40,352 bases of DNA from Bacteroidales bacterium. Lineage in GTDB: Bacteria > Bacteroidota > Bacteroidia > Bacteroidales > WCHB1-69. The translations under genes and the position numbers were made by a program. Position 1 is the first letter of the stretch. The number at the start of each line of letters is the position of its first letter. This document shows positions 468-38,387 of this stretch, one piece after another. The stretch is from assembly GCA_017633495.1 (NCBI GenBank), contig JAGBPE010000128.1, forward strand, positions 1 to 40,352, read 5' to 3'. The notes under the pieces were generated by a model. It was not told where the DNA came from and ran no database searches. It saw only the letters and a program-made list of their open reading frames with translations.

Positions 468-468
468 C

Positions 469-1236: not shown

Positions 1237-1247
1237 CTATTGAAAAA

Positions 1248-2699: not shown

Positions 2700-2721
2700 T
2701 GCCTCTCTTTTTTACAGTTTG

Positions 2722-2729
2722 CAAAGATA
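2722..2729 (-). promoter_or_regulatory. Bacteroidetes -7 promoter box TATCTTTG
   Basis: The reverse strand reads TATCTTTG, matching TAnnTTTG, 22 nt upstream of the ATG at 2699. It lies inside the TTTGCAAAGATA word that recurs at other starts in this window. Confidence 0.5.
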
Positions 2730-2734
2730 CACTT

Positions 2735-3688: not shown

Positions 3689-3700
3689 GATCTTTCGGGA

Positions 3701-4144
3701 TTATTTTTTACCGCTGTGACCGAAACCGCCGGCACCGCGTTCGGTGTCAGAGAGCTCTTCCTTCGAAGCCACCTCTTGAACCTCCACCTGTTGGAATTTG
3801 GCGATCACCATCTGGGCGATGCGCTCACCATGCTGGATTTCAAACGGCTCTTGCGAGAGGTTGACCAGAATCACACAAACCTCGCCACGGTAGTCGGCGT
3901 CGATGGTGCCTGGACTGTTGAGCACCGTGATGCCGTGTTTGAGTGCCAATCCGCTTCGAGGACGGATCTGTGCCTCGCAATCTGGCGGAAGTTCCATGAA
4001 CAATCCGGTCGGAATCAACTTTCGCTCAAGGGGTTGCAACACCACGGGCTCTGAAAGGTTCGCCCGCAAATCCATGCCCGCCGCACACTCCGAGGCATAC
4101 GCCGGCAATTGGTTGGTTGATTGGTTGTATATTTTTATTGTCAT
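3701..4144 (-). CDS. dut: dUTP diphosphatase
   Basis: 147 aa with canonical dUTPase motifs: [34 protein letters not shown] and a C-terminal [10 protein letters not shown]. Confidence 0.95.
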
Positions 4145-4153
4145 AATTAGTAA

Positions 4154-4996
4154 TTACTGCACAATTTCACCTTCTTTCACCGCTTTGTCGTACAACTCCT
4201 GGATATAGCGGTTGATGTACTCCGCTTTGCGTTGGTTCATCAGGAGCATGCCGGCGGCGGCGCGTTCCTCTTTGGTCTCATTCACAGAACGTTGCGAGCG
4301 GTAGTCGAGGATGACCAGCAAGATGGTGTTGTCGCCCACCTCCTTTTCAATCTTGACGATTTCCCCTTTGTTGGCAGCCTTCTCGGCATCGATTTGGAAG
4401 GAGACTTCGTTTTGCAGGTCGTCCAGATAGAGCCAAGCGTCGTCGTCGAGCAGATACTCAATGGTGTCACCCAATAGGCTTACCAGGCGTTCCTTCTCCT
4501 CGTGGCGACGGCTTTCGTCGAAGAGAATCTCTTTCGCTTTCGAAACCGCAGAGTTGCCGGTTGGGATTTTCGCGTAGTTGACCCTCACTATCTCTTTGTC
4601 AACGGTGTAGCGACTGTCCAAAGAGCGGGCGAACTCCGAAATTTCTCCGGAAGTTATCTTGTTGCTGAGGGTGTCCTTCCGCCAGAGTTTTTCATAATAT
4701 CTGTTGATTAACAAAGAGTTGCGGTATTCGGTCATCTCTTTGTCGAAGTTTTTTTCACGCGGAGTGAGATGCTTTTCTGCTTCGTGCAGCACCAGCTTCT
4801 CCTTTACCCAGCTGTCGATGTAGTCGCGCACCATGGCCAGACTGTCATCGGGGGAGAGCCCAACGGGCATGCCGGACCGGACCTCGGAGGCGTAGAGCTT
4901 GTATTGGTACACCTGAGCCACCACGGGGTCGTCTTTCTTCCGGCAACCGGAGCAAAAGATGATGAGGATGCAGAGTATGACGCTGATTCTCTTCAC
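4154..4996 (-). CDS. SurA-N-like periplasmic chaperone lipoprotein without a parvulin domain
   Basis: 280 aa with a lipoprotein signal (ILIIFCSGC). The helical body resembles a SurA N-terminal domain. Its ATG lies 1 nt after the stop of the upstream PpiC gene. Confidence 0.6.
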   Translation of the reverse strand: MKRISVILCILIIFCSGCRKKDDPVVAQVYQYKLYASEVRSGMPVGLSPDDSLAMVRDYIDSWVKEKLVLHEAEKHLTPREKNFDKEMTEYRNSLLINRYYEKLWRKDTLSNKITSGEISEFARSLDSRYTVDKEIVRVNYAKIPTGNSAVSKAKEILFDESRRHEEKERLVSLLGDTIEYLLDDDAWLYLDDLQNEVSFQIDAEKAANKGEIVKIEKEVGDNTILLVILDYRSQRSVNETKEERAAAGMLLMNQRKAEYINRYIQELYDKAVKEGEIVQ

Positions 4997-4997
4997 G

Positions 4998-6743: not shown

Positions 6744-6799
6744 AATAATCTGTATATCAGTTCTTTTTATTTGTTTGTTTATTTCTTCAATTTGAGATG

Positions 6800-6807
6800 C
6801 AAAGATA
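6800..6807 (-). promoter_or_regulatory. -7 promoter box TATCTTTG for the ppiC-led gene array
   Basis: The reverse strand reads TATCTTTG, 57 nt upstream of the ATG at 6743. Confidence 0.55.
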
Positions 6808-6879
6808 ACATAAATAATCAACTTTGAATCATTAAAAATGCAACCCAAAATAATGTTGTTTTGCGTGGCTTTTTAGTTT

Positions 6880-6903
6880 GAAAAATTAATAGAAAAATTA
6901 ATA
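6880..6903. repeat. perfect 12-bp tandem repeat GAAAAATTAATA x2
   Basis: Read directly from the sequence. It lies in the divergent ppiC/capD spacer. Confidence 0.9.
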
Positions 6904-6914
6904 AATCATTGCTG

Positions 6915-6929
6915 TTTTTTTTTTTTTTT
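6915..6929. repeat. T15 homopolymer tract
   Basis: 15 uninterrupted T residues between the two outward-facing -7 boxes. A further T8 run lies at 6955-6962. Confidence 0.95.
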
Positions 6930-6992
6930 GATAAACAAAATGGTGTCAATAAAATTTTTTTTGTGAGTGTTGATACTGTTATATTTATTTTC

Positions 6993-7000
6993 TAATTTTG
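6993..7000 (+). promoter_or_regulatory. -7 promoter box TAATTTTG, candidate capD promoter
   Basis: Matches TAnnTTTG about 100 nt upstream of the ATG at 7101. This implies an unusually long leader. Confidence 0.4.
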
Positions 7001-7100
7001 CCTTTATGTTTTTTAAATGAAAAACTCGAAGTTTGAAGAAGAGAGGCTTGATTTGTAAGTGAGTGATTCATTGTTTGTTGTTAAGTAATTGCATTAAAAT

Positions 7101-9026
7101 ATGGCAAATATAATAGACAGACTGGCCGGCAAGATTTCGACATTTTTGGATTCGAGATTGATTTTTTTGCTGGATTTGGTGAACTCATTGGCGGCTTCAT
7201 TGCTCGCTTTGCTTGCCCTCGGCTATATGCGGGGCACATTTTATGCCTCCGGTCGCTTCGCGTTGCTGTGGATGTGCACATCCTTGATCGCTTTCGTGGT
7301 CGCCATGCTGATTTTCAAGGGGCATAAGCTGATTATCAGGCATTTGAAGTTCTTCGATATGATTTGTTTCATGGAGGAGGCAGGATTCAAAGTCGTGGTG
7401 ATGGCGATTGTGATGACGGTTGCTTATATGAAGTTGTATGCCGGAGTGCTCTTCGCTCTTTTTGCAGACTTTGTCTTCACGATCCTCTTTTTGCTTGGTG
7501 TTCGTCTGATGATGATTGTCGCTTACCGCATCTTTCTGAACAAACAGGTGGCTAAGCGTAACTGTCAGCGGGTGCTCCTGTTCGGAACCTCCGACAAAAC
7601 ATTGGCGGCTATTATGCGTCTGGAGAATTCCACTCATTATCAGGTGGTGGGTATGATTTCCAAGGAGAAACAGCCTGAGAATCTGAGAATTGCCGACTAT
7701 CCCGTTTTTAACTATGACGATGTCAAGCGCTTTGAGCAGATTGTGAATGAATATGACGTGGACGCTGTGCTCTTCACCTCTGAGATTGATGCCAAGAACG
7801 AACGCGACGGACTGGTGAAAATCTGTTCGGATTTGCATATCCGCCAACTTATTATCCCGAACATTGATGTGATGTCCGGCAATTTTACTCACAACAACAT
7901 TCGTAACGTCAAAATTGAGGACTTGCTGGGTCGTGAGGAGATCAAAATTTCCATGGATGCCATTATCGCCAATTTCAAAGACAAGGTGGTGATGGTGACG
8001 GGCGCTGCAGGCTCCATCGGCTCCGAACTCTGTCGTCAGCTCGCCGGATTTGGCGTCAAACAGCTGGTGCTTTTCGACAATGCAGAAACGCCGATGCACA
8101 ACATTCGCCTCGAACTCGAAGAGAAGTTCCCGCACCTTTCATTCGTCCCCGTTATCGGTGATGTGCGGCAAGGTCCTCGCGTCGACTATGCATTCCGTAA
8201 ATTCCACCCGCAAATTGTCTTCCATGCAGCCGCTTACAAGCATGTGCCGCTTATGGAGGAGAATCCCTGCGAGGCCATCCGTGTCAATGTGCATGGTACC
8301 CACACCGTGGCCGACAAATGTATCGAATACGGTGTTGAGAAGATGGTGATGATTTCCACCGATAAGGCGGTGAACCCCACCAACGTGATGGGCTGTTCAA
8401 AGAGAATTGCCGAGATTTACGTGCAGTCGCTCGGACTTGCCATCGAACGCGGTGAGATTAAGGGCAATACCACATTCGTGACCACGCGTTTCGGAAACGT
8501 GCTGGGTTCCAATGGTTCCGTGATTCCGCGTTTCAGAGAACAGATTGAGAAGGGCGGTCCTGTTACGGTCACCGATCCCAACATCACCCGATTCTTCATG
8601 ACCATCCCCGAGGCTTGCCGTCTGGTGATGGAGGCTGCCACGATTAGTACCGGCACCCAGATTTTCGTTTTTGATATGGGCGAGTCTGTGAAGATTGACG
8701 ATTTGGCTAAACGCATGATCGACCTTGCCGGACTGAAACTCGGCGAAGACATCGAGATTGAATATGTGGGTCTGCGCCCCGGTGAAAAACTTTACGAAGA
8801 GGTGCTCTCCAACAAGGAGAATACGATAGAAACCGAACACGACCGTATTTTCATCGCCAAGGTGCGCAAATACGACTACAAAGAAGCCCTTGCCGCCGTG
8901 GAGGATATGGAAGAGAAGTCTATCTTTGTGCAGATTCCTGAGATGGTGAAGAAGATGAAAGAGTTTGTGCCTGAGTTCATTAGTCAGAACTCCGTTTTCC
9001 AGCAATACGATAAACCTCGGCAATAA
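7101..9026 (+). CDS. membrane-anchored NDP-sugar 4,6-dehydratase/epimerase, CapD/WbpM/PglF family
   Basis: 641 aa with four N-terminal TM helices and an SDR Rossmann motif (VTGAAGSIGSEL). Catalytic region: AAYKHVPLME...STDKAVNPTNVMGCSKR. Confidence 0.9.
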   Translation: MANIIDRLAGKISTFLDSRLIFLLDLVNSLAASLLALLALGYMRGTFYASGRFALLWMCTSLIAFVVAMLIFKGHKLIIRHLKFFDMICFMEEAGFKVVVMAIVMTVAYMKLYAGVLFALFADFVFTILFLLGVRLMMIVAYRIFLNKQVAKRNCQRVLLFGTSDKTLAAIMRLENSTHYQVVGMISKEKQPENLRIADYPVFNYDDVKRFEQIVNEYDVDAVLFTSEIDAKNERDGLVKICSDLHIRQLIIPNIDVMSGNFTHNNIRNVKIEDLLGREEIKISMDAIIANFKDKVVMVTGAAGSIGSELCRQLAGFGVKQLVLFDNAETPMHNIRLELEEKFPHLSFVPVIGDVRQGPRVDYAFRKFHPQIVFHAAAYKHVPLMEENPCEAIRVNVHGTHTVADKCIEYGVEKMVMISTDKAVNPTNVMGCSKRIAEIYVQSLGLAIERGEIKGNTTFVTTRFGNVLGSNGSVIPRFREQIEKGGPVTVTDPNITRFFMTIPEACRLVMEAATISTGTQIFVFDMGESVKIDDLAKRMIDLAGLKLGEDIEIEYVGLRPGEKLYEEVLSNKENTIETEHDRIFIAKVRKYDYKEALAAVEDMEEKSIFVQIPEMVKKMKEFVPEFISQNSVFQQYDKPRQ

Positions 9027-9046
9027 TATTAAGGTAATAAATATTG

Positions 9047-9080
9047 AAAAAAGGCTGTCTTTCCGGACAGCCTTTTTTAA
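9047..9080. terminator. intrinsic terminator hairpin with flanking A and T tracts
   Basis: AAAAAAGGCTGTC-TTTCCG-GACAGCCTTTTTT, a 9-bp stem at 9051-9059/9066-9074, placed 20 nt after the capD stop. Confidence 0.8.
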
Positions 9081-9089
9081 TAAAAAGTG

Positions 9090-9097
9090 TATATTTG
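9090..9097 (+). promoter_or_regulatory. -7 promoter box TATATTTG
   Basis: Matches TAnnTTTG 20 nt upstream of the ATG at 9117. Confidence 0.55.
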
Positions 9098-9116
9098 CCG
9101 CTTAAAGTTTAGTATT

Positions 9117-10190
9117 ATGGATAATTATTATCTCGTTGGTATTCAGCAAATTGGCATCGGCACGGAGGATATGGTTGCGTCGTGGAAATGGTATGCTGAC
9201 ATGTTTCAGATGAATGTCAGGATTTTGGAGGACGACACGGTAGCCGAAAGGATGCTTCCCTATACGAACAACAAACCCGAGAAGCGGCATGCTTGCATAG
9301 CGGCCAACCTGCAGGGCGGCGGCGGTTTCGAGATTTGGCAATATTCGGAGCGTAAGCCTCTTCCTATCGATTTTGATGTGCAGATCGGCGATCTCGGTGT
9401 CTTCTGTGCCAAGATCAAATCCCATAACATCACCGCATATCACGCCGAACTGGCTGCCAAATACCAGAACGTTTCGCAAATATTCACCGATCCTCAGGGA
9501 CTTCCCACTTTTTATCTCTACGACCCCAACGGAAATCTCTTCCAGGTGGTGGAGGATAATTACATCTTCATTGATGAGAACCGCTATTCAGGCGGTGTGG
9601 TTGGTGCGATGATCGGCGTTTCCGACATCGACAAGGCGCTGACGGTTTACCGGGATATCCTTGGCTACGATACGGTGGTTTACGACAAAAACGGCACTTT
9701 TAGCGATTGGCAGACGTTGCGAGGCGGTACGCAGCACTACAGACGTGTGTTGCTGAGCCACTCCCAGCCGTTCAAAGGACCTTTTGTGAATATGTATGGC
9801 AGCAGTACCATTGAACTGGTGCAGGCCATCGACCGCGAACCGCGCAAGATTTTCGAGAGTCCTCGTCAATGGGGCGATCCCGGCTATATCCAGATCTGTT
9901 TCGATGTCGTGAACATGCGCGCTCTGGAGAAGCATTGCCAGTCACTCGGTCATCCTTTCACGGTGGACAGCTGTCCCGGCGACGGCGACTTCGACATGGG
10001 TCTCGCTTCCGGCCATTTTACCTATATCGAAGATCCAGATGGCACCCTGATCGAGTTTGTGGAAGCCCATAAGATTCCGATTAGCAACCGATTCAATCTC
10101 TGCTTAAACTTGATGAAACGCGACCGGTCGAAAGCATTGCCGACGTTCCTGTTCAAATTGATGAAACTGAACCGAGTGAAATTCGACTGA
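9117..10190 (+). CDS. two-module VOC (glyoxalase/bleomycin-resistance/dioxygenase superfamily) protein
   Basis: The start is moved from the GTG at 9087 to the ATG at 9117 (MDNYYLVGIQQIGIG). The 357 aa contain two beta-alpha-beta-beta-beta-like halves (IGIGTEDM...FEIW...YLYDPNGNLFQVVE and IGVSDIDKAL...ELVQ...TYIEDPDGTLIEFVE). Confidence 0.7.
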   Translation: MDNYYLVGIQQIGIGTEDMVASWKWYADMFQMNVRILEDDTVAERMLPYTNNKPEKRHACIAANLQGGGGFEIWQYSERKPLPIDFDVQIGDLGVFCAKIKSHNITAYHAELAAKYQNVSQIFTDPQGLPTFYLYDPNGNLFQVVEDNYIFIDENRYSGGVVGAMIGVSDIDKALTVYRDILGYDTVVYDKNGTFSDWQTLRGGTQHYRRVLLSHSQPFKGPFVNMYGSSTIELVQAIDREPRKIFESPRQWGDPGYIQICFDVVNMRALEKHCQSLGHPFTVDSCPGDGDFDMGLASGHFTYIEDPDGTLIEFVEAHKIPISNRFNLCLNLMKRDRSKALPTFLFKLMKLNRVKFD

Positions 10191-10191
10191 T

Positions 10192-10791
10192 ATGGGCAAT
10201 CTGTTAGATCAAATCAAGAAGGATTTGCGTTATGAAGAGGCGCTCCATGCCTGCATGAACTGCGGCATGTGTACGGCTGTGTGTCCGGCGGCGGAGTTCT
10301 ATGACTACGACCCGCGCCGCATCTGCGACCTCGTGCAACGCAACGACGAGGCGGTCATCGAGGAGCTGCTGCGTTCCGAAACTATCTGGTATTGTGGACA
10401 ATGCATGTCGTGCAAACCCCGCTGTCCGCGTGGCAACGCTCCTGGCGAAATCATCAACGTACTGCGCAAAGTCTCCCAAGAGACCGGCTATTTCCGTGAC
10501 AGCGAGATGGGTCGTCAGCAAACGCAACTGATGAACTCCATCGAACAGAATATCCTCGATATCGGCTATTGCGTGCACCCCGACCGTGTGGATCCCGACT
10601 ATCACGTGGAGCAGGGACCCGTTTGGCGTTGGTTTGTGGACAACATCGAGGAAATTGCCCCGAAACTCGGCGCGAACTACCATGGCGATGGCCCCGGCGC
10701 CCTCCGCACCATCCCCCACGAGGACATGGCGGAAGTACATAAGATTTTCGAAGTCACCGGCGGCTTTGATCTTCGCGAGAAAGTGAAATAA
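10192..10791 (+). CDS. HdrC-like 2x[4Fe-4S] ferredoxin-domain protein
   Basis: 199 aa with two CxxCxxCxxxCP motifs (CMNCGMCTAVCP and CGQCMSCKPRCP). Its ATG lies 1 nt after the VOC stop (TGA-T-ATG). Confidence 0.7.
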   Translation: MGNLLDQIKKDLRYEEALHACMNCGMCTAVCPAAEFYDYDPRRICDLVQRNDEAVIEELLRSETIWYCGQCMSCKPRCPRGNAPGEIINVLRKVSQETGYFRDSEMGRQQTQLMNSIEQNILDIGYCVHPDRVDPDYHVEQGPVWRWFVDNIEEIAPKLGANYHGDGPGALRTIPHEDMAEVHKIFEVTGGFDLREKVK

Positions 10792-10828
10792 TTGATAATT
10801 GATAATTGAGAATTGAGAATTGAGAATG
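10790..10828. repeat. 7-bp tandem repeat (AATTGAT)x2 (AATTGAG)x3
   Basis: Read directly from the sequence. It begins inside the stop codon of the preceding gene. Confidence 0.9.
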
Positions 10829-10887
10829 AAAGGGGTAAGTACCTGAAGATTGCTCAATAGTCAAAGTTAAGGATAAAGTCAAAGTCA

Positions 10888-11916
10888 ATGAGAAGAATAA
10901 TCATACTAATCAGTGCTATTTTTCTGCCATTGCTCATCATGGCGCAGGACCGCATCAATGTGACCGACAAAAACGGCAAGAAACAGGGCGTCTGGAAAAA
11001 ATACGAGCAAGGTAAGTTGCTGTACGAAGGGCAGTTCAAGGATGACGTACCCTACGGAACGTTCAAGTACTACTATACCGACGGCAAGCTGAAGAGTGTT
11101 ACCGAGTTTGTGCAAGGTGTGCATAAAGTGCATACGACCATGTATCACGAAAATGGGAAAAAAGCCTCTGAAGGTGCTTACATTGACCAGCAGAAAGACG
11201 GCGAGTGGCGCTACTATTCCAATCAGGATACCTTGATCAAGGTGGAAAACTACCAGGTAGGCAACCGACAAGGAATATGGCAAACCTATTCCACATCGGG
11301 AGTGCTGTTGGAGGAGACAAATTACTTGAACAACAAGCGCAACGGTCTATCCAAAGTCTATTATTTGAACGGTCAGGTGCAGTTGGAGGCGAATTATGTA
11401 GGCGGCAAGACCAATGGTAAGAGCACTTCCTATTATCCGAATGGAAAGATATCAATGACAGGTGATTACCACGATGGATGGCGCGACGGAGAGTGGAATG
11501 CATACGATGTGAACGGCAAAATCCGCTCCACAACGGTTTATAAAGACCAGCGACTGGTGAATACCTACATCTATATGTATCAAAAAGGGGTGGGACAGAA
11601 ACTAAAACAGGATATCGTGGCCTATTTTGTGAAAAACCGCGACAAAGTGACGGTCTATTTGAAAAACGGCAACAAGATTTCAATTGACGAAACATTCGAA
11701 GAGGTTGAGCAATGGATTGATTATACGGTGTTTACGAGGGTTAATCCGCGCTATATCGTCGCTATTGACGCCATTGTGAGTTATAAGCCTGTGGCGGATG
11801 CCGACGACGCTATCATTCTCAAAATCAACCCCGCTCCCGACGAGGAAATATATTCCGAAGGCAATGACGCCAAACTCCTCAAAGCGTTATTCAATCCGGA
11901 AAAACCCCAAGAATAA
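10888..11916 (+). CDS. secreted MORN-repeat (YwqK-like) protein with a LytTR-like C-terminal domain
   Basis: 342 aa with signal peptide MRRIIILISAIFLPLLIMAQ. About 8 MORN-variant repeats follow (GxWKxYxxxGKLxxEGxF...). The C-terminus, DIVAYFVKNRDKVTVYLKNGNKISIDETFEEVEQWI...FTRVNPRYIVAIDAI, follows the LytTR pattern. Confidence 0.65.
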   Translation: MRRIIILISAIFLPLLIMAQDRINVTDKNGKKQGVWKKYEQGKLLYEGQFKDDVPYGTFKYYYTDGKLKSVTEFVQGVHKVHTTMYHENGKKASEGAYIDQQKDGEWRYYSNQDTLIKVENYQVGNRQGIWQTYSTSGVLLEETNYLNNKRNGLSKVYYLNGQVQLEANYVGGKTNGKSTSYYPNGKISMTGDYHDGWRDGEWNAYDVNGKIRSTTVYKDQRLVNTYIYMYQKGVGQKLKQDIVAYFVKNRDKVTVYLKNGNKISIDETFEEVEQWIDYTVFTRVNPRYIVAIDAIVSYKPVADADDAIILKINPAPDEEIYSEGNDAKLLKALFNPEKPQE

Positions 11917-11923
11917 AAATATC

Positions 11924-12004
11924 ATTCCTTAAGCAGCCTCGAAGAGGCAAGACGCACGAAGTGCTAATAACCCCACATAAGCGACGTAGGTGCGCAATGT
12001 GGGG
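11924..12004 (+). repeat. structured intergenic repeat, copy A (full length, three hairpins)
   Basis: ATTCCTTAAGCAG, then hairpin GCCTC-GAA-GAGGC, hairpin GCAC-GAA-GTGC, and hairpin CCCCACAT...ATGTGGGG. It starts 7 nt after the upstream stop and ends 33 nt before the MATE ATG. Confidence 0.8.
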
Positions 12005-12037
12005 CCGAAAAAGAAACTAAGAACCATACTCTTATCA

Positions 12038-13327
12038 ATGAATCGCGAAATCCTCCGCATTTCTCTTCCAAGCATCATCACCAACATCACCGTGCCGCTA
12101 TTGGGCATGGTGGATGTGGCAATCGTGGGGCATATCGGTGATGCGACCTATATCGCGGCCATTGCGTTGGGGACGATGGTTTTCAATCTTATATACTGGA
12201 ATTTCGGTTTCCTGAGGGCAGGAACATCGGGTATGACAGCGCAGGCATATGGTGCGGAAGACAAGACGGAATATCTGAACGTTTTAGTGCGCGGCATTGC
12301 CATCGCATTGGCGGCGGCGCTGCTCATCATTCTGTTGCAGCGACCTGTCGGCTATCTCTGCAAGAAATGGATAGACAGCTCTTCCGAAACAATGGGATTG
12401 ATGCTGACCTACTTCTACATCCGCGTCTGGGCGGCCCCGGCCACCATCAGCATTTTCGTGTTGAAAGGCTGGTTTTTGGGAATGCAGAATGCCAGCTCCC
12501 CGATGTGGATTGCCACGCTGATGAATGTGGTGAACATCCTCTGTAGTCTGCTGTTCGTCTATGTGTTGCACGCCGACATTTCCGGTGTGGCGTGGGGCAC
12601 GGTGGCGGCGCAGTACAGCGGTCTGCTGTTAGCCATCACGATTTGGATTCGTCGTTACGGGTATCTCTGGAAGGATATCCGTTGGAAAACGGCTTTGCAG
12701 TTGCGCAAAATGGTTCGTTTCTTCAAGGTGAACGCTGATATTTTCCTCCGTTCGCTCTGTTTTATCGCGGTGTTTACCTTCATTCCGTACATTTCCGCCC
12801 ATTTCGGGGAGGAGATCCTGGCCGCCAACACTCTGCTGATGCAGCTCTTCACGCTCACTTCCTATGTGATGGACGGTTTCGCCTACGCCGGCGAGTCGCT
12901 CGTGGGCAAGTATGTGGGTGCGCAAGACAAGCTCCGTCTCCGTCTCACCATCCACTACCTGCTCTATTGGGGTGTCGGACTGGCGATCTTCTTCACGTTG
13001 CTGTTTATCTTTGCCGGAGAGCCGCTCTTGCGTGTCCTCTCCAGTGACGAAACAGTCATCCAGACCTCCCTGCAATACATGTTTTGGACCTATCTACTGC
13101 CTTTCACCGGTTTCGCGGCCTTCATCTACGACGGCATCTACATCGGTGCGACGGCTTCCGCTCCTATGCGCAACGTGATGTTCGTGGCCACGGCAGTCTT
13201 CTTCGTGGTTTACTATGCACTCGTCGGTCGCTGGGCCAACCACGCCATCTGGTGCGCTTTTATCTTCTTCCTGACGTTCCGTGGCGTGCTGATGGCGATG
13301 GGACAAAAGAGGTACATTCTTAGTTAG
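12038..13327 (+). CDS. MATE family efflux transporter (DinF-like)
   Basis: The start is moved from the GTG at 11990, which lies inside the repeat hairpin, to the ATG at 12038 (MNREILRISLPSIITNITVPLLGMVD). 429 aa with about 12 TM helices. Confidence 0.85.
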   Translation: MNREILRISLPSIITNITVPLLGMVDVAIVGHIGDATYIAAIALGTMVFNLIYWNFGFLRAGTSGMTAQAYGAEDKTEYLNVLVRGIAIALAAALLIILLQRPVGYLCKKWIDSSSETMGLMLTYFYIRVWAAPATISIFVLKGWFLGMQNASSPMWIATLMNVVNILCSLLFVYVLHADISGVAWGTVAAQYSGLLLAITIWIRRYGYLWKDIRWKTALQLRKMVRFFKVNADIFLRSLCFIAVFTFIPYISAHFGEEILAANTLLMQLFTLTSYVMDGFAYAGESLVGKYVGAQDKLRLRLTIHYLLYWGVGLAIFFTLLFIFAGEPLLRVLSSDETVIQTSLQYMFWTYLLPFTGFAAFIYDGIYIGATASAPMRNVMFVATAVFFVVYYALVGRWANHAIWCAFIFFLTFRGVLMAMGQKRYILS

Positions 13328-13351
13328 CAGTTAGTAGTTAGTAGTTAGCAG
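13320..13351. repeat. 7-bp tandem repeat TTAGCAG/TTAGTAG x4 overlapping the MATE stop codon
   Basis: Read directly from the sequence. An inverted 11-mer copy, CTAACTGCTAA, lies at 13365-13375. Confidence 0.9.
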
Positions 13352-13377
13352 TCAAAGCCAACACCTAACTGCTAAAG

Positions 13378-13405
13378 GCCAATAGCTAATAGCCAACAGC
13401 CAAAA
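13378..13405. repeat. degenerate 7-bp tandem repeat GCCAATA GCTAATA GCCAACA GCCAAAA
   Basis: Read directly from the sequence. The same GCYAAnn heptad family appears on the reverse strand at 14906-14933. Confidence 0.8.
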
Positions 13406-13443
13406 AAAAAGCGCCCGAGCATGATGTTCGGGCGTTTTCTTTA
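13402..13443. terminator. bidirectional intrinsic terminator between convergent MATE and mscL
   Basis: An A9 tract, then the stem CGCCCGA / TCGGGCG (13412-13418 / 13428-13434), then TTTTCTTT. Confidence 0.85.
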
Positions 13444-13461
13444 ACGGAATTGCGTGCCGGC

Positions 13462-13893
13462 TTATTTCTCCTTCAGCAAATCGCGGATTTCGGTGAGAAG
13501 CTTCTCTTCGGCGCTTGGCTCGGGAGCAGGTGCCGGAGCCTCTTCTTCCTGTTTCTTCACCAAGCTGGTGGCCTTGTTGATACCCTTCATCACGAGGAAG
13601 ATACACAATGCCACAATCAGGAAGTCGATCGTCACCTGGATGAAGTTGCCGTAGTTGAGGGTGACGGCCTCTTTCACAACTTCGCCAGCCTCGTTGAGCT
13701 TCGGGGTGCGGAGGGTCAGCGAGAGCGTCGTGAAGTTGACGTTGCCGATGAGCGCACCGACGAGCGGCATGAGAATGTCATTCACCAAAGAGGTGACGAT
13801 TTTACCGAAGGCACCGCCGATGATCACACCGATGGCCATGTCCATCACGTTGCCTTTCATTGCAAATTCCTTGAATTCTTTAAAAAATCCCAT
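13462..13893 (-). CDS. mscL: large-conductance mechanosensitive channel
   Basis: 143 aa starting [33 protein letters not shown], with two TM helices and a charged C-terminal helix. Confidence 0.95.
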
Positions 13894-13931
13894 AGCGTTA
13901 AAATTTTAATGATGTTTGAAAGTGCAAAAGT

Positions 13932-13972
13932 AAAAAAAAATACAGATTGTTGTGCTAATCTGTATTTTTTTT
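13932..13972. terminator. intrinsic terminator hairpin with flanking A9 and T8 tracts
   Basis: ATACAGATT-GTTGTGCT-AATCTGTAT, a 9-bp stem, immediately downstream of the glycosyltransferase stop at 13982. Confidence 0.85.
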
Positions 13973-13981
13973 CTTATTGAC

Positions 13982-14902
13982 TTATTCATCGGAATTCAGT
14001 AGGTTGTGCATCACCGAAAGCTTGTATAAATCCAAGAACATCAGGCTGTTATACGTAGATGCGATGTTTCTCAGCGGTTGCTTGATTTTTCCGAGCAGCG
14101 ATAGGGTGAATCGACCCGAAATCGTTCGTTTAAGCTTTTGGTAGGTGGCTAACAACGTGCTGACAGCCAAGAATTTGTCGTCTAATTTGTTGTGGGATTG
14201 CAGGTTGACAAGATTGGCGACACCCGCTGCCACTTTGTCCAAAAGCAGTTCGTTGGTGTCGATGCCTTCGTGATAGAGCTCATTGTCAATGTGATAGACG
14301 GGGATTCCGCATTTTTTGAGCTCAATGCCGAAGAAGGTATCTTCGTAGCCATATTGTTTCAAACTCTCTTCAAAACGACATTTCTCGAACACCGATTTGG
14401 CAATCAGCATGTTGAACGGGGTGAAAGCCCTGTAGGGATCGCGGTTCCGTTCATACGCCGGTCGCACCTCCCGTTTGATGCCGTAACGATAGCGCAGCAA
14501 TTTGGTCTTTTCGGGACGCATTTCACGATAGCTCAAACCTCCTAAAACCACAAAATCGGTTCCCTGGAGATTATTCTCTTGCAAAAAACGGATATAATTC
14601 GAGATATAGTCACTGCTTTTTACGCGAGCGTCGCAGTCCATGAAGAGCAGGGTTGGGTATTTCGCAGCATCCGCCAGACTGTTACGGATTTTGGAGCGAC
14701 CGATGTTCTGCTCATTTTGGATATACTGCACGTGATACTGCTCCGCCAATAGCGAATTGTGATAGCGCACCGACGTGTCCGACGATGCATCATCTGAGAT
14801 GATGATCTCGTACTCGATATTGCTCTCATTCAATTGCGCTTGTAATTCCGAAACTAGCGGATGCAGATTTGTATTATATGTTGGAATTAATATTGATAAC
14901 AT
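13982..14902 (-). CDS. family 2 (GT-A) glycosyltransferase
   Basis: 306 aa starting MLSILIPTYN, followed by IIISDDASSD and the DxD-type motif FMDCDA. Confidence 0.85.
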   Translation of the reverse strand: MLSILIPTYNTNLHPLVSELQAQLNESNIEYEIIISDDASSDTSVRYHNSLLAEQYHVQYIQNEQNIGRSKIRNSLADAAKYPTLLFMDCDARVKSSDYISNYIRFLQENNLQGTDFVVLGGLSYREMRPEKTKLLRYRYGIKREVRPAYERNRDPYRAFTPFNMLIAKSVFEKCRFEESLKQYGYEDTFFGIELKKCGIPVYHIDNELYHEGIDTNELLLDKVAAGVANLVNLQSHNKLDDKFLAVSTLLATYQKLKRTISGRFTLSLLGKIKQPLRNIASTYNSLMFLDLYKLSVMHNLLNSDE

Positions 14903-14959: not shown

Positions 14960-14983
14960 TGCCATAGACAATTACCAATTAAC

Positions 14984-15030
14984 CCTTAAACTATAAACCT
15001 TAAACTATAAACCTTAAACCTCTTAAACTA
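14984..15030. repeat. 14-bp tandem repeat CCTTAAACTATAAA x2 plus two partial units
   Basis: Read directly from the sequence. The last partial unit contains the ftsE-like stop codon at 15023-15025. Confidence 0.9.
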
Positions 15031-15807: not shown

Positions 15808-15846
15808 CTACCAAGCTCTTGTCCCTGCCGGGACTGCTCAAGGAAT
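15808..15846 (-). repeat. structured intergenic repeat, copy E (5' module only)
   Basis: The reverse strand reads ATTCCTTGAGCA-GTCCC-GGCA-GGGAC-AAGAGCTTGGTAG. It ends 29 nt before the ftsE ATG. Confidence 0.7.
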
Positions 15847-15852
15847 AATATA

Positions 15853-15880
15853 ATTCTTAATTCTGCATTCTTAATTCTGA
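15853..15880. repeat. 14-bp tandem repeat ATTCTTAATTCTGC / ATTCTTAATTCTGA
   Basis: Read directly from the sequence. It lies between the gyrB stop and repeat copy E. Confidence 0.9.
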
Positions 15881-15886
15881 ATTGGA

Positions 15887-19082: not shown

Positions 19083-19325
19083 CTCTGCCTGATTCCATCG
19101 CACGTTCACAAAAACAAACTACTAAGAAAAAAGGACGATAGAATCGGGTGCTTCCCACGTCATTCCTGCAAGAAAGTTTATTGGATGAAAGACTTCTCCT
19201 TAAATTTTTGCGGGAATGATTTTTTATTGTCCCCCTTTATCACATTCTCAACCTGAAATCCCATCCCGCCTGCCATTTTGTCAGTTCTTCCCCATTGGCA
19301 ACATAATTGCAATATTATGCGGCGT

Positions 19326-19361
19326 GTGCTCACTGAATATTCTGTGCTCACTGAATATTCT
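19326..19361. repeat. perfect 18-bp tandem repeat GTGCTCACTGAATATTCT x2
   Basis: Read directly from the sequence. Each unit carries the 8-bp palindrome GAATATTC (19335-19342 and 19353-19360). Confidence 0.9.
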
Positions 19362-19369
19362 GAAAATAT

Positions 19370-19444
19370 ATTCCTTGAGCAGCCTCGAAGAGGCAAGACG
19401 CACGCAGTGCAATTAACCCCACACAAGCGAAGCGCAGTGTGGGG
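19370..19444 (+). repeat. structured intergenic repeat, copy B (full length)
   Basis: ATTCCTTGAGCA-GCCTC-GAA-GAGGC-AAGAC-GCAC-GCA-GTGC-AATTAA-CCCCACAC-AAGCGAAGCGCA-GTGTGGGG. It ends 33 nt before the clpB ATG. Confidence 0.8.
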
Positions 19445-19448
19445 TCAA

Positions 19449-19470
19449 CCTAAACCTTAAACCTTAAACC
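19449..19470. repeat. 7-bp tandem repeat CCTAAA/CCTTAAA x3
   Basis: Read directly from the sequence. It lies between repeat copy B and the clpB start. Confidence 0.85.
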
Positions 19471-19477
19471 GAAAATT

Positions 19478-22775: not shown

Positions 22776-22841
22776 CCAGGGGTTGCGCTTCGCTTACCCC
22801 TGGCTACCGAGCTCTTGCCCCTACGGGGCTGCTTAAGGAAA
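22776..22841 (-). repeat. structured intergenic repeat, copy D (variant with flipped distal stem)
   Basis: The reverse strand reads TTTCCTTAAGCA-GCCCC-GTA-GGGGC-AAGAGCTCGGTAG-CCAGGGGT-AAGCGAAGCGCA-ACCCCTGG. It starts 7 nt after the upstream stop and ends 23 nt before the nitroreductase ATG. Confidence 0.75.
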
Positions 22842-22848
22842 GTTTTTA

Positions 22849-24144
22849 TTACAGGCTCCAATACGTCATGTTCTTCACCACGTTACGATACAGACCCTTA
22901 ACGTCAACGAAGATGCCATTGCCAAGGGAATATTGCTGGAAATACTCTTCCGAGAGCCCTTTGTATTCGTTGTGGGCGACGGCGAGGATGATGGCGTTGT
23001 AGGGACCTTCGGGCTGCGACTTCAGTTCGAGGTTGTAGCATTTCTTGACCTCTTCGGGGTTGGCGAACGGATCGACCACGTCCACGATGACACCGAAATC
23101 CTGCAGCTCGTGGATGATGTCCACCACTTTGGAGTTGCGGATGTCGGAGACGTTCTCTTTGAAGGTGATGCCCATCACGAGTACGCGTGCGTTCATAGCC
23201 GGTTTGCCGGAAGCGATGATCTTCTTGACCACGTTCTTGGCGATGTAGCCGCCCATGGAGTCGTTGACGAAACGACCGGCGGAGATGACCTGTGTGTGAT
23301 ATTTTAGTTCAGCCGCCTTGTGCACGAGGTAGTAGGGGTCCACGCCGATGCAGTGGCCGCCAACCAGACCGGGGAAGAACTTCATGAAGTTCCATTTTGT
23401 GCCGGCCGCCTCCAACACGTCGTAGGTGTTGATGCCCATTCTGCCGAACAGGATCGACAGCTCGTTCATCAGGGCGATGTTGACGTCGCGTTGGGTGTTC
23501 TCGATGATCTTGGCAGCTTCGGCCACTTTGACGCTCGGGGCGCGGTGCACACCGGGTTGCACGACCATTTCGTAGATTTTCGCAATCTGTTCCAAGGATT
23601 CGTCATCGCAACCGGAGACGATCTTGACGGTCTTTTCCAACGTGTGTACCTTTTCGCCAGGATTGATACGCTCAGGCGAATAGCCGAACTTGAAATCGAC
23701 GCCTGCCTTTAATCCGGAAAGCTGCTCCAAAACCGGAACGCAGTCCTCTTCGGTGCAACCGGGGTAGACGGTGGACTCATAGACCACGTAGTCGCCCTTT
23801 TTCAGCACTTTGCCGACAGATTTGGTGGCTCCGAGCAGCGGAACCAGGTCGGGTTTGTTGTTCTTGTCGATGGGCGTCGGCACTGCCACGATGTAGAAGG
23901 TGGCTTTGGCCAATTCGTCCAAGGAGGAGGTAAACAGGATGTCTGCATTCTCGAACACGCTGTCGTCCAACTCTTTGCACGGGTCTGTACCTGAACGCAT
24001 CACGTTGAGATGATCCTCGTTGATGTCGAAACCGATGACAGAGGCTTTGTGAGCGAAAGCCATCGCCAGAGGAAGTCCGACATAACCCAAACCGATCACG
24101 CCGATTTTGGCATTTTTGCTTAAAATTTCATCGTATATGGCCAT
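22849..24144 (-). CDS. NDP-sugar 6-dehydrogenase of the UDP-glucose/GDP-mannose dehydrogenase family (TviB/WbpO/UDP-HexNAc dehydrogenase-like)
   Basis: 431 aa with an N-terminal Rossmann motif (KIGVIGLGYVGLPLAMAF) and the catalytic-Cys block LVGGHCIGVDPYYL. Confidence 0.85.
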   Translation of the reverse strand: MAIYDEILSKNAKIGVIGLGYVGLPLAMAFAHKASVIGFDINEDHLNVMRSGTDPCKELDDSVFENADILFTSSLDELAKATFYIVAVPTPIDKNNKPDLVPLLGATKSVGKVLKKGDYVVYESTVYPGCTEEDCVPVLEQLSGLKAGVDFKFGYSPERINPGEKVHTLEKTVKIVSGCDDESLEQIAKIYEMVVQPGVHRAPSVKVAEAAKIIENTQRDVNIALMNELSILFGRMGINTYDVLEAAGTKWNFMKFFPGLVGGHCIGVDPYYLVHKAAELKYHTQVISAGRFVNDSMGGYIAKNVVKKIIASGKPAMNARVLVMGITFKENVSDIRNSKVVDIIHELQDFGVIVDVVDPFANPEEVKKCYNLELKSQPEGPYNAIILAVAHNEYKGLSEEYFQQYSLGNGIFVDVKGLYRNVVKNMTYWSL

Positions 24145-27480: not shown

Positions 27481-28641
27481 TTATCGCGCGGCGGTGCCGA
27501 CCACTACCTCGGCAGCCTTTTGAGAAGCCGAACCGTTGCCCAGCCGCGTGTACAATTCGTCATACTGCGCTTTCATGGCGGCGATGTTTTCCGCATCTTC
27601 CGTGATGAGGCGCAGTTCTTTTTGCAATCTTTCCGGGTTATAGTCGTGCTGGATGAGCTCCGTCACCACGGGTGCGTCCATAATGAGGTTGGGTAGGGAG
27701 ATATAGTTGATTCCGGAGATCAAGTGCTTGGCTATCAGGTAGGAAATCTCGCTTCCAGCATAACAGACCACCTGCGGGGTACCGATCATGGAGGTCTCCA
27801 AAGTGGCGGTTCCGGATGCGACGATGGCCGCTTTGGCGTTGGCGAGCAACGCGTAGGTCTGGTCACAAACCGTATACACGTTACGGCTTTGTAGAGACGA
27901 TGTGCACATCGTCTCTACGGATGTTTGCAAATGTTTGTCATATAGTTCTTTCGGAAGCCACGAAACGGTGGAAACCACAAATTGGTATTGCGGGAATTGC
28001 TCCACCACGCTCAGCATGGTCGGCAAAATGGCGTTGATCTCCTGTTTGCGACTGCCGGGCAAAAGAGCAATAATCTCCCTGTCTTCCAGCTGATTATCCG
28101 TCTTGAAGCTCACAACATCGGAACGTGTACGCAGGTCGCGTTGCACCGCGTCGAGCAGCGGATGACCTACATAATGCACATCCATACCGTTTTTGGCGTA
28201 AAACTCCTTCTCGAACGGAAGAATCACCATCATTTCGTCCACATCGCGCTTGATCTGCTTGATGCGTCCCTTCTTCCAAGCCCAAATCTGCGGCGAAATG
28301 TAGTAAACCACCTTAATGTGGCGCTCTTTGGCGAACTGGGCGATGCGCAGGTTGAAACCGGGATAATCGACCAAAACCAATACATCAGGTAACCACTCTA
28401 AGATATCTGCTTTACAGCGTTTTATGTTTTCTAAAACTTCTGAAAGATGCACGAAAACCTCCCAAAAACCCATGAAGGCCATCTCTTTGTAGTGCATAAG
28501 CAAATCCGCTCCGGCATTGCGCATTAAATCGCCGCCGCAACCCCGAAACAGAGCTTCGGAATCTTTCGCTTTGATGGCCTTGATCAGGTTGGAGGCGTGC
28601 AGGTCGCCCGACGCCTCGCCCGCCACGATGTAATATCTCAT
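27481..28641 (-). CDS. lpxB: lipid-A-disaccharide synthase
   Basis: 386 aa starting MRYYIVAGEASGDLHASNLI, with DYPGFNLR and SGTATLE motifs. Confidence 0.93.
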   Translation of the reverse strand: MRYYIVAGEASGDLHASNLIKAIKAKDSEALFRGCGGDLMRNAGADLLMHYKEMAFMGFWEVFVHLSEVLENIKRCKADILEWLPDVLVLVDYPGFNLRIAQFAKERHIKVVYYISPQIWAWKKGRIKQIKRDVDEMMVILPFEKEFYAKNGMDVHYVGHPLLDAVQRDLRTRSDVVSFKTDNQLEDREIIALLPGSRKQEINAILPTMLSVVEQFPQYQFVVSTVSWLPKELYDKHLQTSVETMCTSSLQSRNVYTVCDQTYALLANAKAAIVASGTATLETSMIGTPQVVCYAGSEISYLIAKHLISGINYISLPNLIMDAPVVTELIQHDYNPERLQKELRLITEDAENIAAMKAQYDELYTRLGNGSASQKAAEVVVGTAAR

Positions 28642-30562: not shown

Positions 30563-30643
30563 CCCCACATTACGCTCCTGCGTCGCTTGTATGGGGTTAA
30601 TTGCACTTCGTGCGTCTTGCCTCTCCGAGGCTGCTCAAGGAAT
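30563..30643 (-). repeat. structured intergenic repeat, copy C (full length)
   Basis: The reverse strand reads ATTCCTTGAGCA-GCCTC-GGA-GAGGC-AAGAC-GCAC-GAA-GTGC-AATTAA-CCCCATAC...ATGTGGGG. It ends 17 nt before the xseA ATG. Confidence 0.8.
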
Positions 30644-30645
30644 AT

Positions 30646-30700
30646 CATCTCCTCATCTTTTCATCTTTTCATCTTTTCATCTCAAGTCTCAAGTCTCAAA
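30646..30700. repeat. 8-bp tandem repeat CATCTTTT x3 (plus one degenerate unit) followed by the 7-bp repeat CTCAAGT x2.5
   Basis: Read directly from the sequence at 30646-30677 and 30681-30700, between the yqgE-like stop and repeat copy C. Confidence 0.9.
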
Positions 30701-38359: not shown

Positions 38360-38387
38360 GTAGAGACGGTGTACGCACCGTCTCTAC
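38360..38387 (-). terminator. strong 12-bp perfect stem-loop after the T9SS cargo gene
   Basis: GTAGAGACGGTG-TACG-CACCGTCTCTAC. On the reverse strand it is followed by GTTTTAT. It lies 29 nt after the stop at 38417. Confidence 0.75.

What the first reader, a model, noticed from the sequence alone, without database searches (positions are those of the whole stretch)
22776..22841. Copy D keeps the apical AAGCGAAGCGCA but inverts the polarity of its enclosing stem
In copy B the apical 12-mer AAGCGAAGCGCA is enclosed by CCCCACAC...GTGTGGGG, with the C-rich arm on the 5' side. In copy D the identical 12-mer is enclosed by CCAGGGGT...ACCCCTGG, with the G-rich arm on the 5' side. A wholesale strand swap that preserves both the helix and the loop sequence is hard to explain by common descent alone. 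It is the strongest single indication that the secondary structure is under selection. Copy D also has the compensated hairpin 1 (GCCCC-GTA-GGGGC) and lacks the middle mini-hairpin, sharing the CAAGAGCTYGGTAG linker with copy E. It occupies nearly the whole 96-nt gap between the dehydrogenase and nitroreductase genes.
Basis: seen in the sequence. Interest (0 to 1): 0.65.

Follow-up and report, generated by a model that had tools for sequence, protein, structure and literature searches.

The report
REP-like modular hairpin repeat, variant copy
Copy D is one member of a very abundant, modular, hairpin-forming intergenic repeat family of uncultured rumen Bacteroidales. Its "inverted" stem is a recurrent alternative module that looks like a classical GTAG-tagged REP palindrome, so it is a new variant of a known kind of bacterial repeat rather than a one-off structural oddity.

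Summary
On the minus strand, 22840->22776 reads TTCCTTAAGCAG / GCCCC-GTA-GGGGC / AAGA-GCTCGGTAG / CCAGGGGT-AAGCGAAGCGCA-ACCCCTGG. The window holds five family copies, all sense to the flanking genes.

It has two architectures:
- Type I (copies A, B, C): a GAA mini-hairpin followed by a CCCCAYAY...RTGTGGGG hairpin.
- Type II (copies D, E): the linker GCTYGGTAG, followed by nothing or by a CCAGGGGT...ACCCCTGG hairpin.

The D-type stem recurs in many MAGs. It carries the identical apex at three other loci, and hybrids between the types exist. All hairpins show compensatory changes, and 119 of 122 hairpin-1 loops are G..A on the sense strand. Orientation is 85 sense to 11 antisense.

The "apex" is an inner GCGAAGC mini-hairpin flanked by an AA/GCA bulge. 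Together with the 5' GTAG, this matches the determinants of E. coli REPs. No cognate RAYT transposase was found; the RAYT-like genes in these MAGs flank a different palindrome (GTAGAGACG...CGTCTCTAC), which has two copies in the window.

Verdict: a REP/BIME-like composite repeat whose structure is under selection. The polarity "swap" is module exchange, not compensatory evolution. Function is inferred, not shown.

The parts
22776..22851 (-). Copy D, the whole composite element (type II with distal hairpin), from the stop codon of the upstream gene to the end of the distal hairpin.
22829..22840 (-). Conserved single-stranded 5' motif TTCCTTAAGCAG. It is preceded by the A/T-rich leader at 22841-22848.
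   Evidence: Position table over 135 copies; listing.
22817..22829 (-). Hairpin 1: GCCCC-GTA-GGGGC, with a GNA triloop.
   Evidence: Covariation and loop census; RNAalifold.
22804..22812 (-). Type II linker GCTCGGTAG. Its last four bases (22807-22804) are a GTAG tag directly 5' of the distal palindrome.
22776..22803 (-). Distal REP-like palindrome. Lower stem: CCAGGGGT/ACCCCTGG. Bulge: AA / GCA. Inner mini-hairpin: GC-GAA-GC (apex 22784-22795).
   Evidence: comparison with E. coli REPs
19371..19444 (+). Copy B (type I), 33 nt upstream of the ClpB start codon. It carries the same apex inside CCCCACAC/GTGTGGGG.
   Evidence: An RNA contig joins it to the clpB coding sequence.
11925..12004 (+). 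Copy A (type I), upstream of a MatE transporter gene.
30563..30642 (-). Copy C (type I), upstream of the exonuclease VII large subunit gene.
15808..15845 (-). Copy E (type II core without a distal hairpin), upstream of an ABC-transporter ATPase gene.
   Evidence: The orthologous copy is in L076.

Best explanation
What it is. Copy D is a type II member of a lineage-specific, modular, REP/BIME-like intergenic repeat family of uncultured rumen Bacteroidales. The unit is built from interchangeable modules:
- an A/T-rich leader plus TTCCTTRAGCAG
- hairpin 1
- CAAGA
- then either a GAA mini-hairpin plus a C-first palindrome (type I), or GCTYGGTAG with or without a G-first palindrome (type II)

D's distal palindrome has the hallmarks of a GTAG-tagged, bulged REP: a 5' GTAG, a lower stem ending in T, an AA/GC(A) bulge and a GC-rich upper mini-hairpin. 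The polarity 'inversion' is the second of two discrete stem modules. It shares the inner mini-hairpin with the first by module exchange or by common constraint.

Shown here:
- family membership
- recurrence of both stem classes
- covariation in the hairpins
- folding of the sense strand
- strong sense orientation
- turnover between strains and species
- presence in RNA assemblies

Inferred mechanism. The sense strand folds into very stable GNA-loop hairpins. As single-stranded DNA these are the substrates by which such palindromes are spread or rearranged, either by an HUH/Y1 RAYT-type enzyme or by slippage and recombination at the shared GC-rich cores. Once transcribed inside mRNAs, the hairpins sit 15-60 nt ahead of the next start codon. 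There they act as decay barriers or structural insulators between cistrons. That would explain why only sense-oriented copies are kept.
For: Distribution:
- Summed contig depth over the element is roughly 30-170 times that of the flanks in runs of unrecorded type.

Architecture:
- Table of architectures and hybrids.
- The exact D-type 33-mer occurs at three other loci: L041, L049, L094.
- 10 of 10 G-first hairpins found from the apex alone are preceded by GTAG and the 5' module.

Structure:
- Compensatory changes.
- 119 of 122 hairpin-1 loops are GNA or GNNA on the sense strand. None of the four-base loops is GNRA.
- This fits the GCGNAGC/GCGNNAGC mini-hairpin rule, which is far more stable in DNA than in RNA (PMC13037366).

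Orientation and position:
- 85 sense to 11 antisense between co-directional genes, p = 2.5e-15.
- For type I copies with a hairpin the count is 40 to 0.
- The distance from element end to ATG has a median of 39 nt and, apart from a few overlaps that are probably start-codon miscalls, a minimum of 14 nt.
- Flanking genes are functionally unrelated.

Turnover:
- There is presence/absence and copy-number variation at orthologous sites: L001-L006, and further pairs.

REP likeness:
- Real E. coli REPs read GTAG-GCMGGAT-AAGGCG..CGCCGCA-TCCGGC.
- GTAG and the AA-GC bulge are the experimentally defined determinants for TnpA_REP (PMC8266576; PMC3733652).
- RAYT-like genes exist in the same MAGs.

Transcription:
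- Metatranscriptome contigs contain D-type and B-type elements, and one contig runs from copy B into clpB.
Against: - No RAYT flanked by D-type or B-type hairpins was found. The three RAYT-like ORFs in 0.85 Mb of MAG loci, and 80 further RAYT loci from metagenomes, are associated with a different palindrome (97 copies, against 0 D-type).
- The palindromes are never in inverted pairs and were never found solitary, unlike REPINs and BIMEs.
- GTAG is part of the type II linker even when no hairpin follows (32 copies), so it may not be a REP 'foot'.
- The excess of G.U over A.C in stems is only modest: 32 to 18, p = 0.065 overall.
- No transcript ends could be mapped, because only assembled contigs without strand information were available.
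- There was no sign that element RNA accumulates over DNA copy number.
- Gene contexts rest on a crude longest-ORF gene call.
Confidence: 0.55

Rival explanations
1. Dedicated cis-acting RNA leader. The conserved single-stranded TTCCTTRAGCAG and the hairpins would be bound by a global RNA-binding protein or RNase. This would set translation or stability of the gene immediately downstream, acting as a general 5' leader or intercistronic cassette in Shine-Dalgarno-poor Bacteroidales. On this reading the REP likeness is convergent.
For: - All 47 type I copies with a hairpin and a callable downstream gene have that gene on the same strand, with none in the antisense or convergent contexts.
- The distance to the ATG is tight: median 32-40 nt.
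- The non-palindromic 5' motif is nearly invariant.
- Copy B is kept at clpB across species, as in L060.
- An RNA contig links copy B to clpB.
Against: - There is no functional theme among the downstream genes.
- The element is dispensable or variable at the same locus in near-identical strains.
- Tandem amplification of modules occurs.
- Type II copies also occur antisense and in convergent gaps.
- The four-base loops avoid GNRA.
- No Rfam family matches.
Confidence: 0.25
2. Purely DNA-level element. The elements would be binding or action sites for DNA proteins (gyrase, IHF-like or nucleoid proteins, as described for E. coli BIMEs), or single-strand initiation signals on the sense strand.
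For: - The loops follow the DNA mini-hairpin rule (PMC13037366).
- Density is similar to that of E. coli REPs (own knowledge).
- The mosaic build resembles that of BIMEs.
Against: - The 85 to 11 bias follows gene direction. Double-stranded protein sites or cruciforms would not need this.
- The elements are depleted in divergent and convergent gaps.
Confidence: 0.1
3. Transcription punctuation: the element is a promoter for the downstream gene or a terminator for the upstream gene.
For: - It sits between functionally unrelated co-directional genes and fills the gap.
Against: - No U-run follows the hairpins. The sequence that follows is A-rich.
- Canonical hairpin-plus-T-run terminators occur separately next to some copies: L099, L031, L011.
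- There is no TTTG / TAnnTTTG-like Bacteroidetes promoter consensus on either strand of the leader (the consensus is from own knowledge).
- An RNA contig from the no-element allele runs from the dehydrogenase 3' end into the intergenic gap.
Confidence: 0.07

Closest known systems
E. coli REP (y/z types) and BIMEs, processed by TnpA_REP/RAYT (Quentin subclass 2.2, 'long with bulge')
   Same: - High-copy intergenic GC-rich imperfect palindromes.
- A GTAG directly 5' of the stem.
- A lower stem ending in T.
- An AA...GC(A) bulge.
- A GC-rich upper stem. Compare AAGGCG..CGCCGCA in E. coli with AAGGCGAAGCCGCA or AAGCGAAGCGCA here.
- Combination with other conserved motifs into mosaics.
- Preference for gaps between co-directional genes.
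- Transcribed.
   Different: - The phylum is Bacteroidota, not Proteobacteria.
- The palindromes are in direct orientation and attached to a non-palindromic 5' module, never in alternating or inverted pairs.
- There is a strong sense-strand bias.
- They lie nearer to the downstream start codon than to the upstream stop codon.
- No cognate RAYT was found.
Double-footed GTAG REPs with RAYT subclass 2.4 (Cyanobacteria/Bacteroidetes; PMC6006769)
   Same: - Present in the same genomes, and twice in this window (27891-27918 and 38360-38387).
- Also GTAG-tagged.
- Inserts next to or inside the TTCCTT elements (L050, L105).
   Different: - It is a perfect palindrome, GTAGAGACG-N10-CGTCTCTAC, with feet on both sides and no bulge.
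- It flanks and interrupts the RAYT-like gene.
- It has no sequence relation to the D-type stem.
BOX elements of Streptococcus pneumoniae (boxA-boxB(n)-boxC) (own knowledge)
   Same: - Modular composite repeat with a variable number of a middle or terminal module.
- Intergenic and transcribed.
- Forms stable secondary structure.
- No transposase of its own.
   Different: - No sequence similarity.
- Different phylum.
- BOX elements lack GTAG-tagged bulged palindromes.
Mini-hairpin DNA GCGNAGC / GCGNNAGC (PMC13037366)
   Same: - The apex contains GCGAAGC exactly.
- The middle hairpin and hairpin 1 have C-GNA-G or C-GNNA-G loops.
   Different: - This is a structural motif, not a genetic element.
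- Its presence says which strand folds, not what the element does.

Membership tests
TTCCTT modular repeat family of rumen Bacteroidales (defined here) | A/T-rich leader + TTCCTTRAGCAG + 5-bp hairpin 1 with a GNA/GNNA loop + CAAGA | tested here: met
   Copy D matches all of these.
TTCCTT modular repeat family, type II | Linker GCTYGGTAG followed by nothing or by a CCRGGGGY...RCCCYKGG palindrome | tested here: met
GTAG-tagged REP (bulged, E. coli-like) | High-copy, mostly intergenic, 20-40-nt GC-rich imperfect palindrome | tested here: met
GTAG-tagged REP (bulged, E. coli-like) | Unpaired GT[AG]G tetranucleotide directly 5' of the stem | tested here: met
   10 of 10 G-first hairpins found from the apex alone. 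However, GTAG is also present in type II copies that have no hairpin.
GTAG-tagged REP (bulged, E. coli-like) | Conserved AA-GC mismatch bulge between lower and upper stem, with T before AA | tested here: met
   T-AA...GC-A in 16-17 of 23 D-type copies. Compared with E. coli REPs read. The determinants are as in PMC8266576. There is one extra A on the 3' side.
GTAG-tagged REP (bulged, E. coli-like) | Cognate RAYT/TnpA_REP gene flanked by the same REPs (a REPtron) | tested here: inconclusive
   None was found in 0.85 Mb of MAG loci or in 80 RAYT loci. Those RAYTs flank GTAGAGACG-type palindromes instead. Whole genomes could not be scanned.
GTAG-tagged REP (bulged, E. coli-like) | Units commonly paired in inverted orientation (REPIN/BIME) | tested here: not met
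   Hairpins are single or in direct tandem and always in one orientation relative to the 5' module. There is one inverted apex, in L095.
GTAG-tagged REP (bulged, E. coli-like) | Strand-specific binding and cleavage by TnpA_REP at a CT near the REP | not testable with these tools
   Needs an in vitro assay.
Rfam cis-regulatory or small RNA families | Match to a curated covariance model | tested here: not met
   No match at gathering score or at E <= 10 over copy D. Only chance-level hits were found near copy B. There were none on 8 related loci.
Intrinsic terminator | GC-rich hairpin immediately followed by a U-run | tested here: not met
   The hairpins are followed by A-rich spacers.

The most novel reading that the evidence does not exclude
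The D-type palindrome may be a genuine E. coli-style (GTAG plus AA/GC-bulged) REP operating in Bacteroidales. It would either be serviced by an undiscovered or heterologous Y1 transposase, or have arisen by cross-phylum convergence on the same recognition design. In this lineage it would have been welded to a sense-specific RNA module, so that the composite works as a general intercistronic leader placed just upstream of start codons in Shine-Dalgarno-poor bacteria.
Probability: 0.2. Interest if true: 0.7.

Novelty: new variant of a known kind. Interest (0 to 1): 0.45.

Why it matters
- The family is one of the most abundant sequence features of a major group of uncultured rumen Bacteroidales. 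It occurs about once per 8 kb here, and it is frequent enough to appear as many collapsed 45-55-nt contigs in the assemblies examined.
- The 2013 survey read here listed GTAG-tagged REPs for Proteobacteria, Cyanobacteria, Chloroflexi and the PVC group, but not for Bacteroidetes.
- A bulged GTAG palindrome fused to an oriented, non-palindromic module would extend the REP/BIME concept.
- It would give a handle on mRNA organisation in bacteria that largely lack Shine-Dalgarno-led initiation.
- It provides a strain-typing marker, because copies differ between near-identical strains.

Tried and rejected
- Rfam, at gathering score and at E <= 10, on the window and on 8 related loci: nothing relevant.
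- An outer helix, UUGAGC/GCUYGG, was proposed by RNAalifold for type II. The R7:Y33 combinations occur as expected under independence (A.C observed 3, expected 3.2), so it is not supported.
- Promoter and terminator readings were rejected on sequence grounds.
- RAYT hunt: tblastn and phmmer with E. coli RayT and with the MAG RAYTs, plus one metagenome scan, found only RAYTs tied to a different palindrome.
- Viral contigs: no copy of the family.
- Transcript-end mapping was not possible. All runs were available only as unstranded contigs.
- Comparison of element-to-flank depth between RNA runs and runs of unrecorded type gave no sign of RNA accumulation.
- The G.U versus A.C test for the folding strand was only weakly informative: 32 to 18 overall, and 22 to 7 at internal type I positions. 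Copies are not independent.
- Looked for clean insertion boundaries or target duplications at orthologous empty sites. The intergenic sequence is replaced wholesale, often by short tandem repeats, so no boundaries could be defined.

Full report
**1. The observation**

Copy D lies on the minus strand. Reading 22851->22776 gives:
- the stop codon of a 431-aa UDP-glucose/GDP-mannose dehydrogenase-family gene
- an A/T-rich leader
- TTCCTTAAGCAG
- hairpin 1, GCCCC-GTA-GGGGC
- AAGA and the linker GCTCGGTAG
- CCAGGGGT-AAGCGAAGCGCA-ACCCCTGG
- 23 nt further on, the ATG of a 212-aa nitroreductase

The exact 12-mer occurs only twice in the window: here, and in copy B at 19425-19436, where it is enclosed by CCCCACAC/GTGTGGGG. 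The linker is shared only with copy E. The description and coordinates are therefore right.

The window has five copies:

| Copy | Coordinates | Strand |
|---|---|---|
| A | 11925-12004 | + |
| B | 19371-19444 | + |
| C | 30642-30563 | - |
| D | 22851-22776 | - |
| E | 15845-15808 | - |

Every copy is in the same direction as the genes on both sides. All fold better than their shuffles except the short copy E.

**2. The family**

A scan of one genome per species used the 5' module, leaving two stem pairs of hairpin 1 free. All were from uncultured Bacteroidales MAGs of cattle, sheep, goat, yak, buffalo and reindeer gut or rumen. No viral contig has the element, and no Rfam family matches it.

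The listing of 119 copies and its parsing show a modular build.
- All copies share a W-rich leader ending in AAAAC-W-T-N, then TTCCTTRAGCAG, hairpin 1 and CAAGA.
- Type I continues with a mini-hairpin CGCRC-GAA-GYGC, then WAWTAA, then a C-first palindrome CCCCAYAY-apex-RTGTGGGG. The palindrome is sometimes repeated in direct tandem.
- Type II continues with GCTYGGTAG, followed either by nothing (32 copies) or by a G-first palindrome CCAGGGGT-apex-ACCCCTGG (about 30 copies).
- Type I never has a G-first first palindrome.
- Eight copies were flagged as hybrids. The clearest are GGTAG plus a C-first palindrome in L019/L063 and L107, and mixed linkers in L036 and L092.

The exact D-type 33-mer GGTAG...CCTGG, with apex AAGCGAAGCGCA, occurs at three unrelated loci in three other MAGs: L041, L049 and L094. 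So both polarities recur with the same apex, in one family, with intermediates.

**3. Is structure selected?**

Yes, for each hairpin.
- Hairpin 1 occurs as GCCCC/GGGGC (73), GTCCC/GGGAC (22), GCCTC/GAGGC (19) and GTCTC/GAGAC (1). About eight stems are imperfect. The varying positions were left free in the search pattern.
- The middle hairpin alternates between A-T (25) and G-C (24) at one pair.
- D-type stems switch between CCAGGGGT/ACCCCTGG and CCCAGGGT/ACCCTGGG by two double changes. RNAalifold on 20 copies finds 4 pairs with compensatory changes.

The strand that folds is the sense strand. 119 of 122 hairpin-1 loops are G..A (GNA or GNNA), and the middle loop is GAA in 44 of 62 copies. G.U exceeds A.C only modestly: 32 to 18 overall, p = 0.065.

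The four-base loops are GTTA, GATA, GGCA, GACA, GGTA and GTCA. None of them is GNRA. They obey the GCGNAGC/GCGNNAGC 'mini-hairpin DNA' rule, which is much more stable in DNA than in RNA (PMC13037366).

**4. What the 'apex' is**

The 12-mer is not a loop. It reads AA-[GC-GAA-GC]-GCA: an inner mini-hairpin set off from the outer stem by an asymmetric bulge. Other apexes keep the same frame:
- AA-[GGC-GAA-GCC]-GCA
- AA-[GC-GCA-GC]-GCA
- AA-[GC GA C-GAA-G GA GC]-GCA
- In type II, AA-[GGCGC-GAGGCACGA-GCGCC]-GCC

These are seen. Given that frame, only about 16 twelve-mers are possible (my estimate). An identical apex in two stem classes is therefore less surprising than it looks.

The same GCGAAGCGC core also forms the middle hairpin of many type I copies. 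L102 differs from its orthologue L056 by a deletion running exactly between two such cores. One type I copy (L095) carries its apex inverted. Module exchange by slippage or recombination is therefore directly visible. The polarity 'swap' is best read as two alternative stem modules around a shared inner module, not as compensatory evolution of one stem.

**5. Likeness to REPs**

I read real E. coli REPs from NC_000913. An example is GTAG-GCAGGAT-AAGGCG-TTCA-CGCCGCA-TCCGGC. The D-type palindrome has the same plan:
- GTAG directly 5' of the stem
- a lower stem ending in T
- AA on the 5' side and GC(A) on the 3' side of a bulge
- a GC-rich upper stem

For E. coli TnpA_REP, the GTAG and the AA-GC bulge are the experimentally defined determinants (PMC8266576; PMC3733652). 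In an apex-anchored search that did not use GTAG, 10 of 10 G-first hairpins were preceded by GTAG. The 2013 survey listed GTAG REPs for Proteobacteria, Cyanobacteria, Chloroflexi and PVC, but not for Bacteroidetes.

Other defining features are not met.
- The palindromes are never in inverted pairs and were never found solitary.
- GTAG belongs to the linker even when no hairpin follows.
- I found no cognate transposase.

RAYT-like genes do exist in these MAGs: L050 1048-1611 and L023 5985-6641. They score 52-62 bits against NCBIfam REP_Tyr_transpos, below the cut-off of 80. However, these genes are flanked, and even interrupted, by a different double-footed perfect palindrome, GTAGAGACG-N10-CGTCTCTAC. 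This fits subclass 2.4 of Quentin et al.. Eighty further RAYT loci from metagenomes carried 97 such palindromes and no D-type hairpin.

**6. Genomic behaviour**

Using a crude longest-ORF gene call, the gene contexts are as follows.
- Copies between co-directional genes are sense in 85 cases and antisense in 11, p = 2.5e-15.
- Type I copies with a hairpin are 40 sense to 0 antisense. In all 47 cases with a callable downstream gene, that gene lies on the same strand.
- Type II is less strict: 38 to 10.
- Copies are depleted in both divergent and convergent gaps. They make up 5% and 8% of copies, against a background of 13% and 15% of gaps.
- The element ends a median of 39 nt before the next ATG, and rarely less than 14 nt. 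The distance from the upstream stop codon is broad.
- Flanking genes have no common theme: GyrB/ParE-like, ABC ATPase, MatE, ClpB, XseA, AlgH-like and nitroreductase.

At the D locus itself, contigs encoding the identical nitroreductase carry one of three alleles:
- the same element (L001, L003, L006)
- an expanded element with two distal palindromes (L002)
- no element at all, with a 41-nt gap made of a gtaagcg repeat (L004, L005)

Other orthologous pairs show empty sites, extra units and changes in tandem copy number. In contrast, copy B at clpB is kept in another species (L060).

**7. Transcription**

Rumen metatranscriptome assemblies contain D-type and B-type elements from many loci. One RNA contig runs from copy B into the clpB coding sequence. 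Another carries the no-element allele read through from the dehydrogenase gene.

Only unstranded contigs were available, so no ends could be mapped. The element-to-flank depth ratio is no higher in RNA runs than in the runs of unrecorded type.

**8. Explanation and verdict**

Settled with good confidence:
- D is a type II member of a modular, structure-conserving, sense-oriented intergenic repeat family.
- Its stem is a recurrent alternative module.

Inferred:
- The sense strand folds into very stable GNA-loop hairpins.
- At the DNA level these make the modules prone to spread and rearrangement, either by an HUH/Y1 enzyme or by slippage.
- In mRNA the hairpins act as decay barriers or insulators just ahead of the next start codon, which would explain the orientation and spacing.

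Rival explanations are a dedicated RNA leader bound by a global factor, a purely DNA-level protein site, and transcription punctuation. The last is the least likely, because no U-run follows the hairpins and no promoter consensus is present.

In kind, this is a new variant of the REP/BIME class, and it works somewhat like pneumococcal BOX elements. It should not be filed as a proven REP, because the REPtron and inverted-pair criteria are not met.

Noticed in passing
window 27891-27918 and 38360-38387: Two copies of a second repeat: the double-footed perfect palindrome GTAGAGACG-N10-CGTCTCTAC, whose central bases co-vary. There are 25 copies in the related MAG loci. In L050 and L023 it flanks, and sits inside, a RAYT-like Y1 transposase gene (a subclass 2.4-type REPtron).
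   Followed up: yes
L017, L026, L033, L040, L054, L058, L077, L078, L091-L095, L109, L110 (27 sites); none in the window: A third repeat module: ATTCCCCYYC-TTTAG-GRRGGGG-TGCCC-GNA-GGGC-GGGGTRG. In 16 of 27 cases it lies directly upstream of a TTCCTT module. In L026, L048 and L065 it sits inside or replaces hairpin 1. The mosaic therefore has more parts than the window shows.
   Followed up: partly
window 19325-19362, 19447-19470, 30645-30699, 15851-15883, 14979-15021, 13322-13403, 10790-10827: Intergenic gaps in this genome are full of short 7-18-nt tandem repeats. Many lie directly next to the elements, and in other strains or species they stand where an element is absent (L004/L005, L077, L097).
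   Followed up: partly
L002 2845-3000; L004 509-549; L005 427-467: The D locus is polymorphic among contigs encoding the identical nitroreductase. One allele is expanded, with a second distal palindrome (apex AAGGCGTGAGGAACGAACGCCGCC). Another allele has no element.
   Followed up: yes
L095 (+) about 5094-5180: A type I copy whose apex is inverted (TGCGGCTTACGCCTT) inside an unchanged CCCCACAC/GTGTGGGG stem, as expected from a flip between the palindrome arms.
   Followed up: no
L056 versus L102: A deletion or duplication runs exactly between two GCGAAGCGC cores: the middle hairpin and a later apex. The shared mini-hairpin core acts as a slippage or recombination point.
   Followed up: partly
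L064 178-663: A degenerate RAYT-like ORF. Its N-terminal half is replaced by a tandem peptide repeat (NGVCDTTD...), while the C-terminal Y-motif half is kept.
   Followed up: no
window 19351-19473 in runs X14-X17: The element region collects summed contig depths of about 350-14,000, against roughly 50-150 for the neighbouring clpB sequence. Many of the matching contigs are only 45-55 nt long. The family is frequent enough to appear as collapsed short contigs in these assemblies.
   Followed up: no
L087 1668-1776: A Bacteroidales small SRP RNA (Rfam RF04183, 93.5 bits) lies in one of the related loci. This is an incidental confirmation of the lineage.
   Followed up: no
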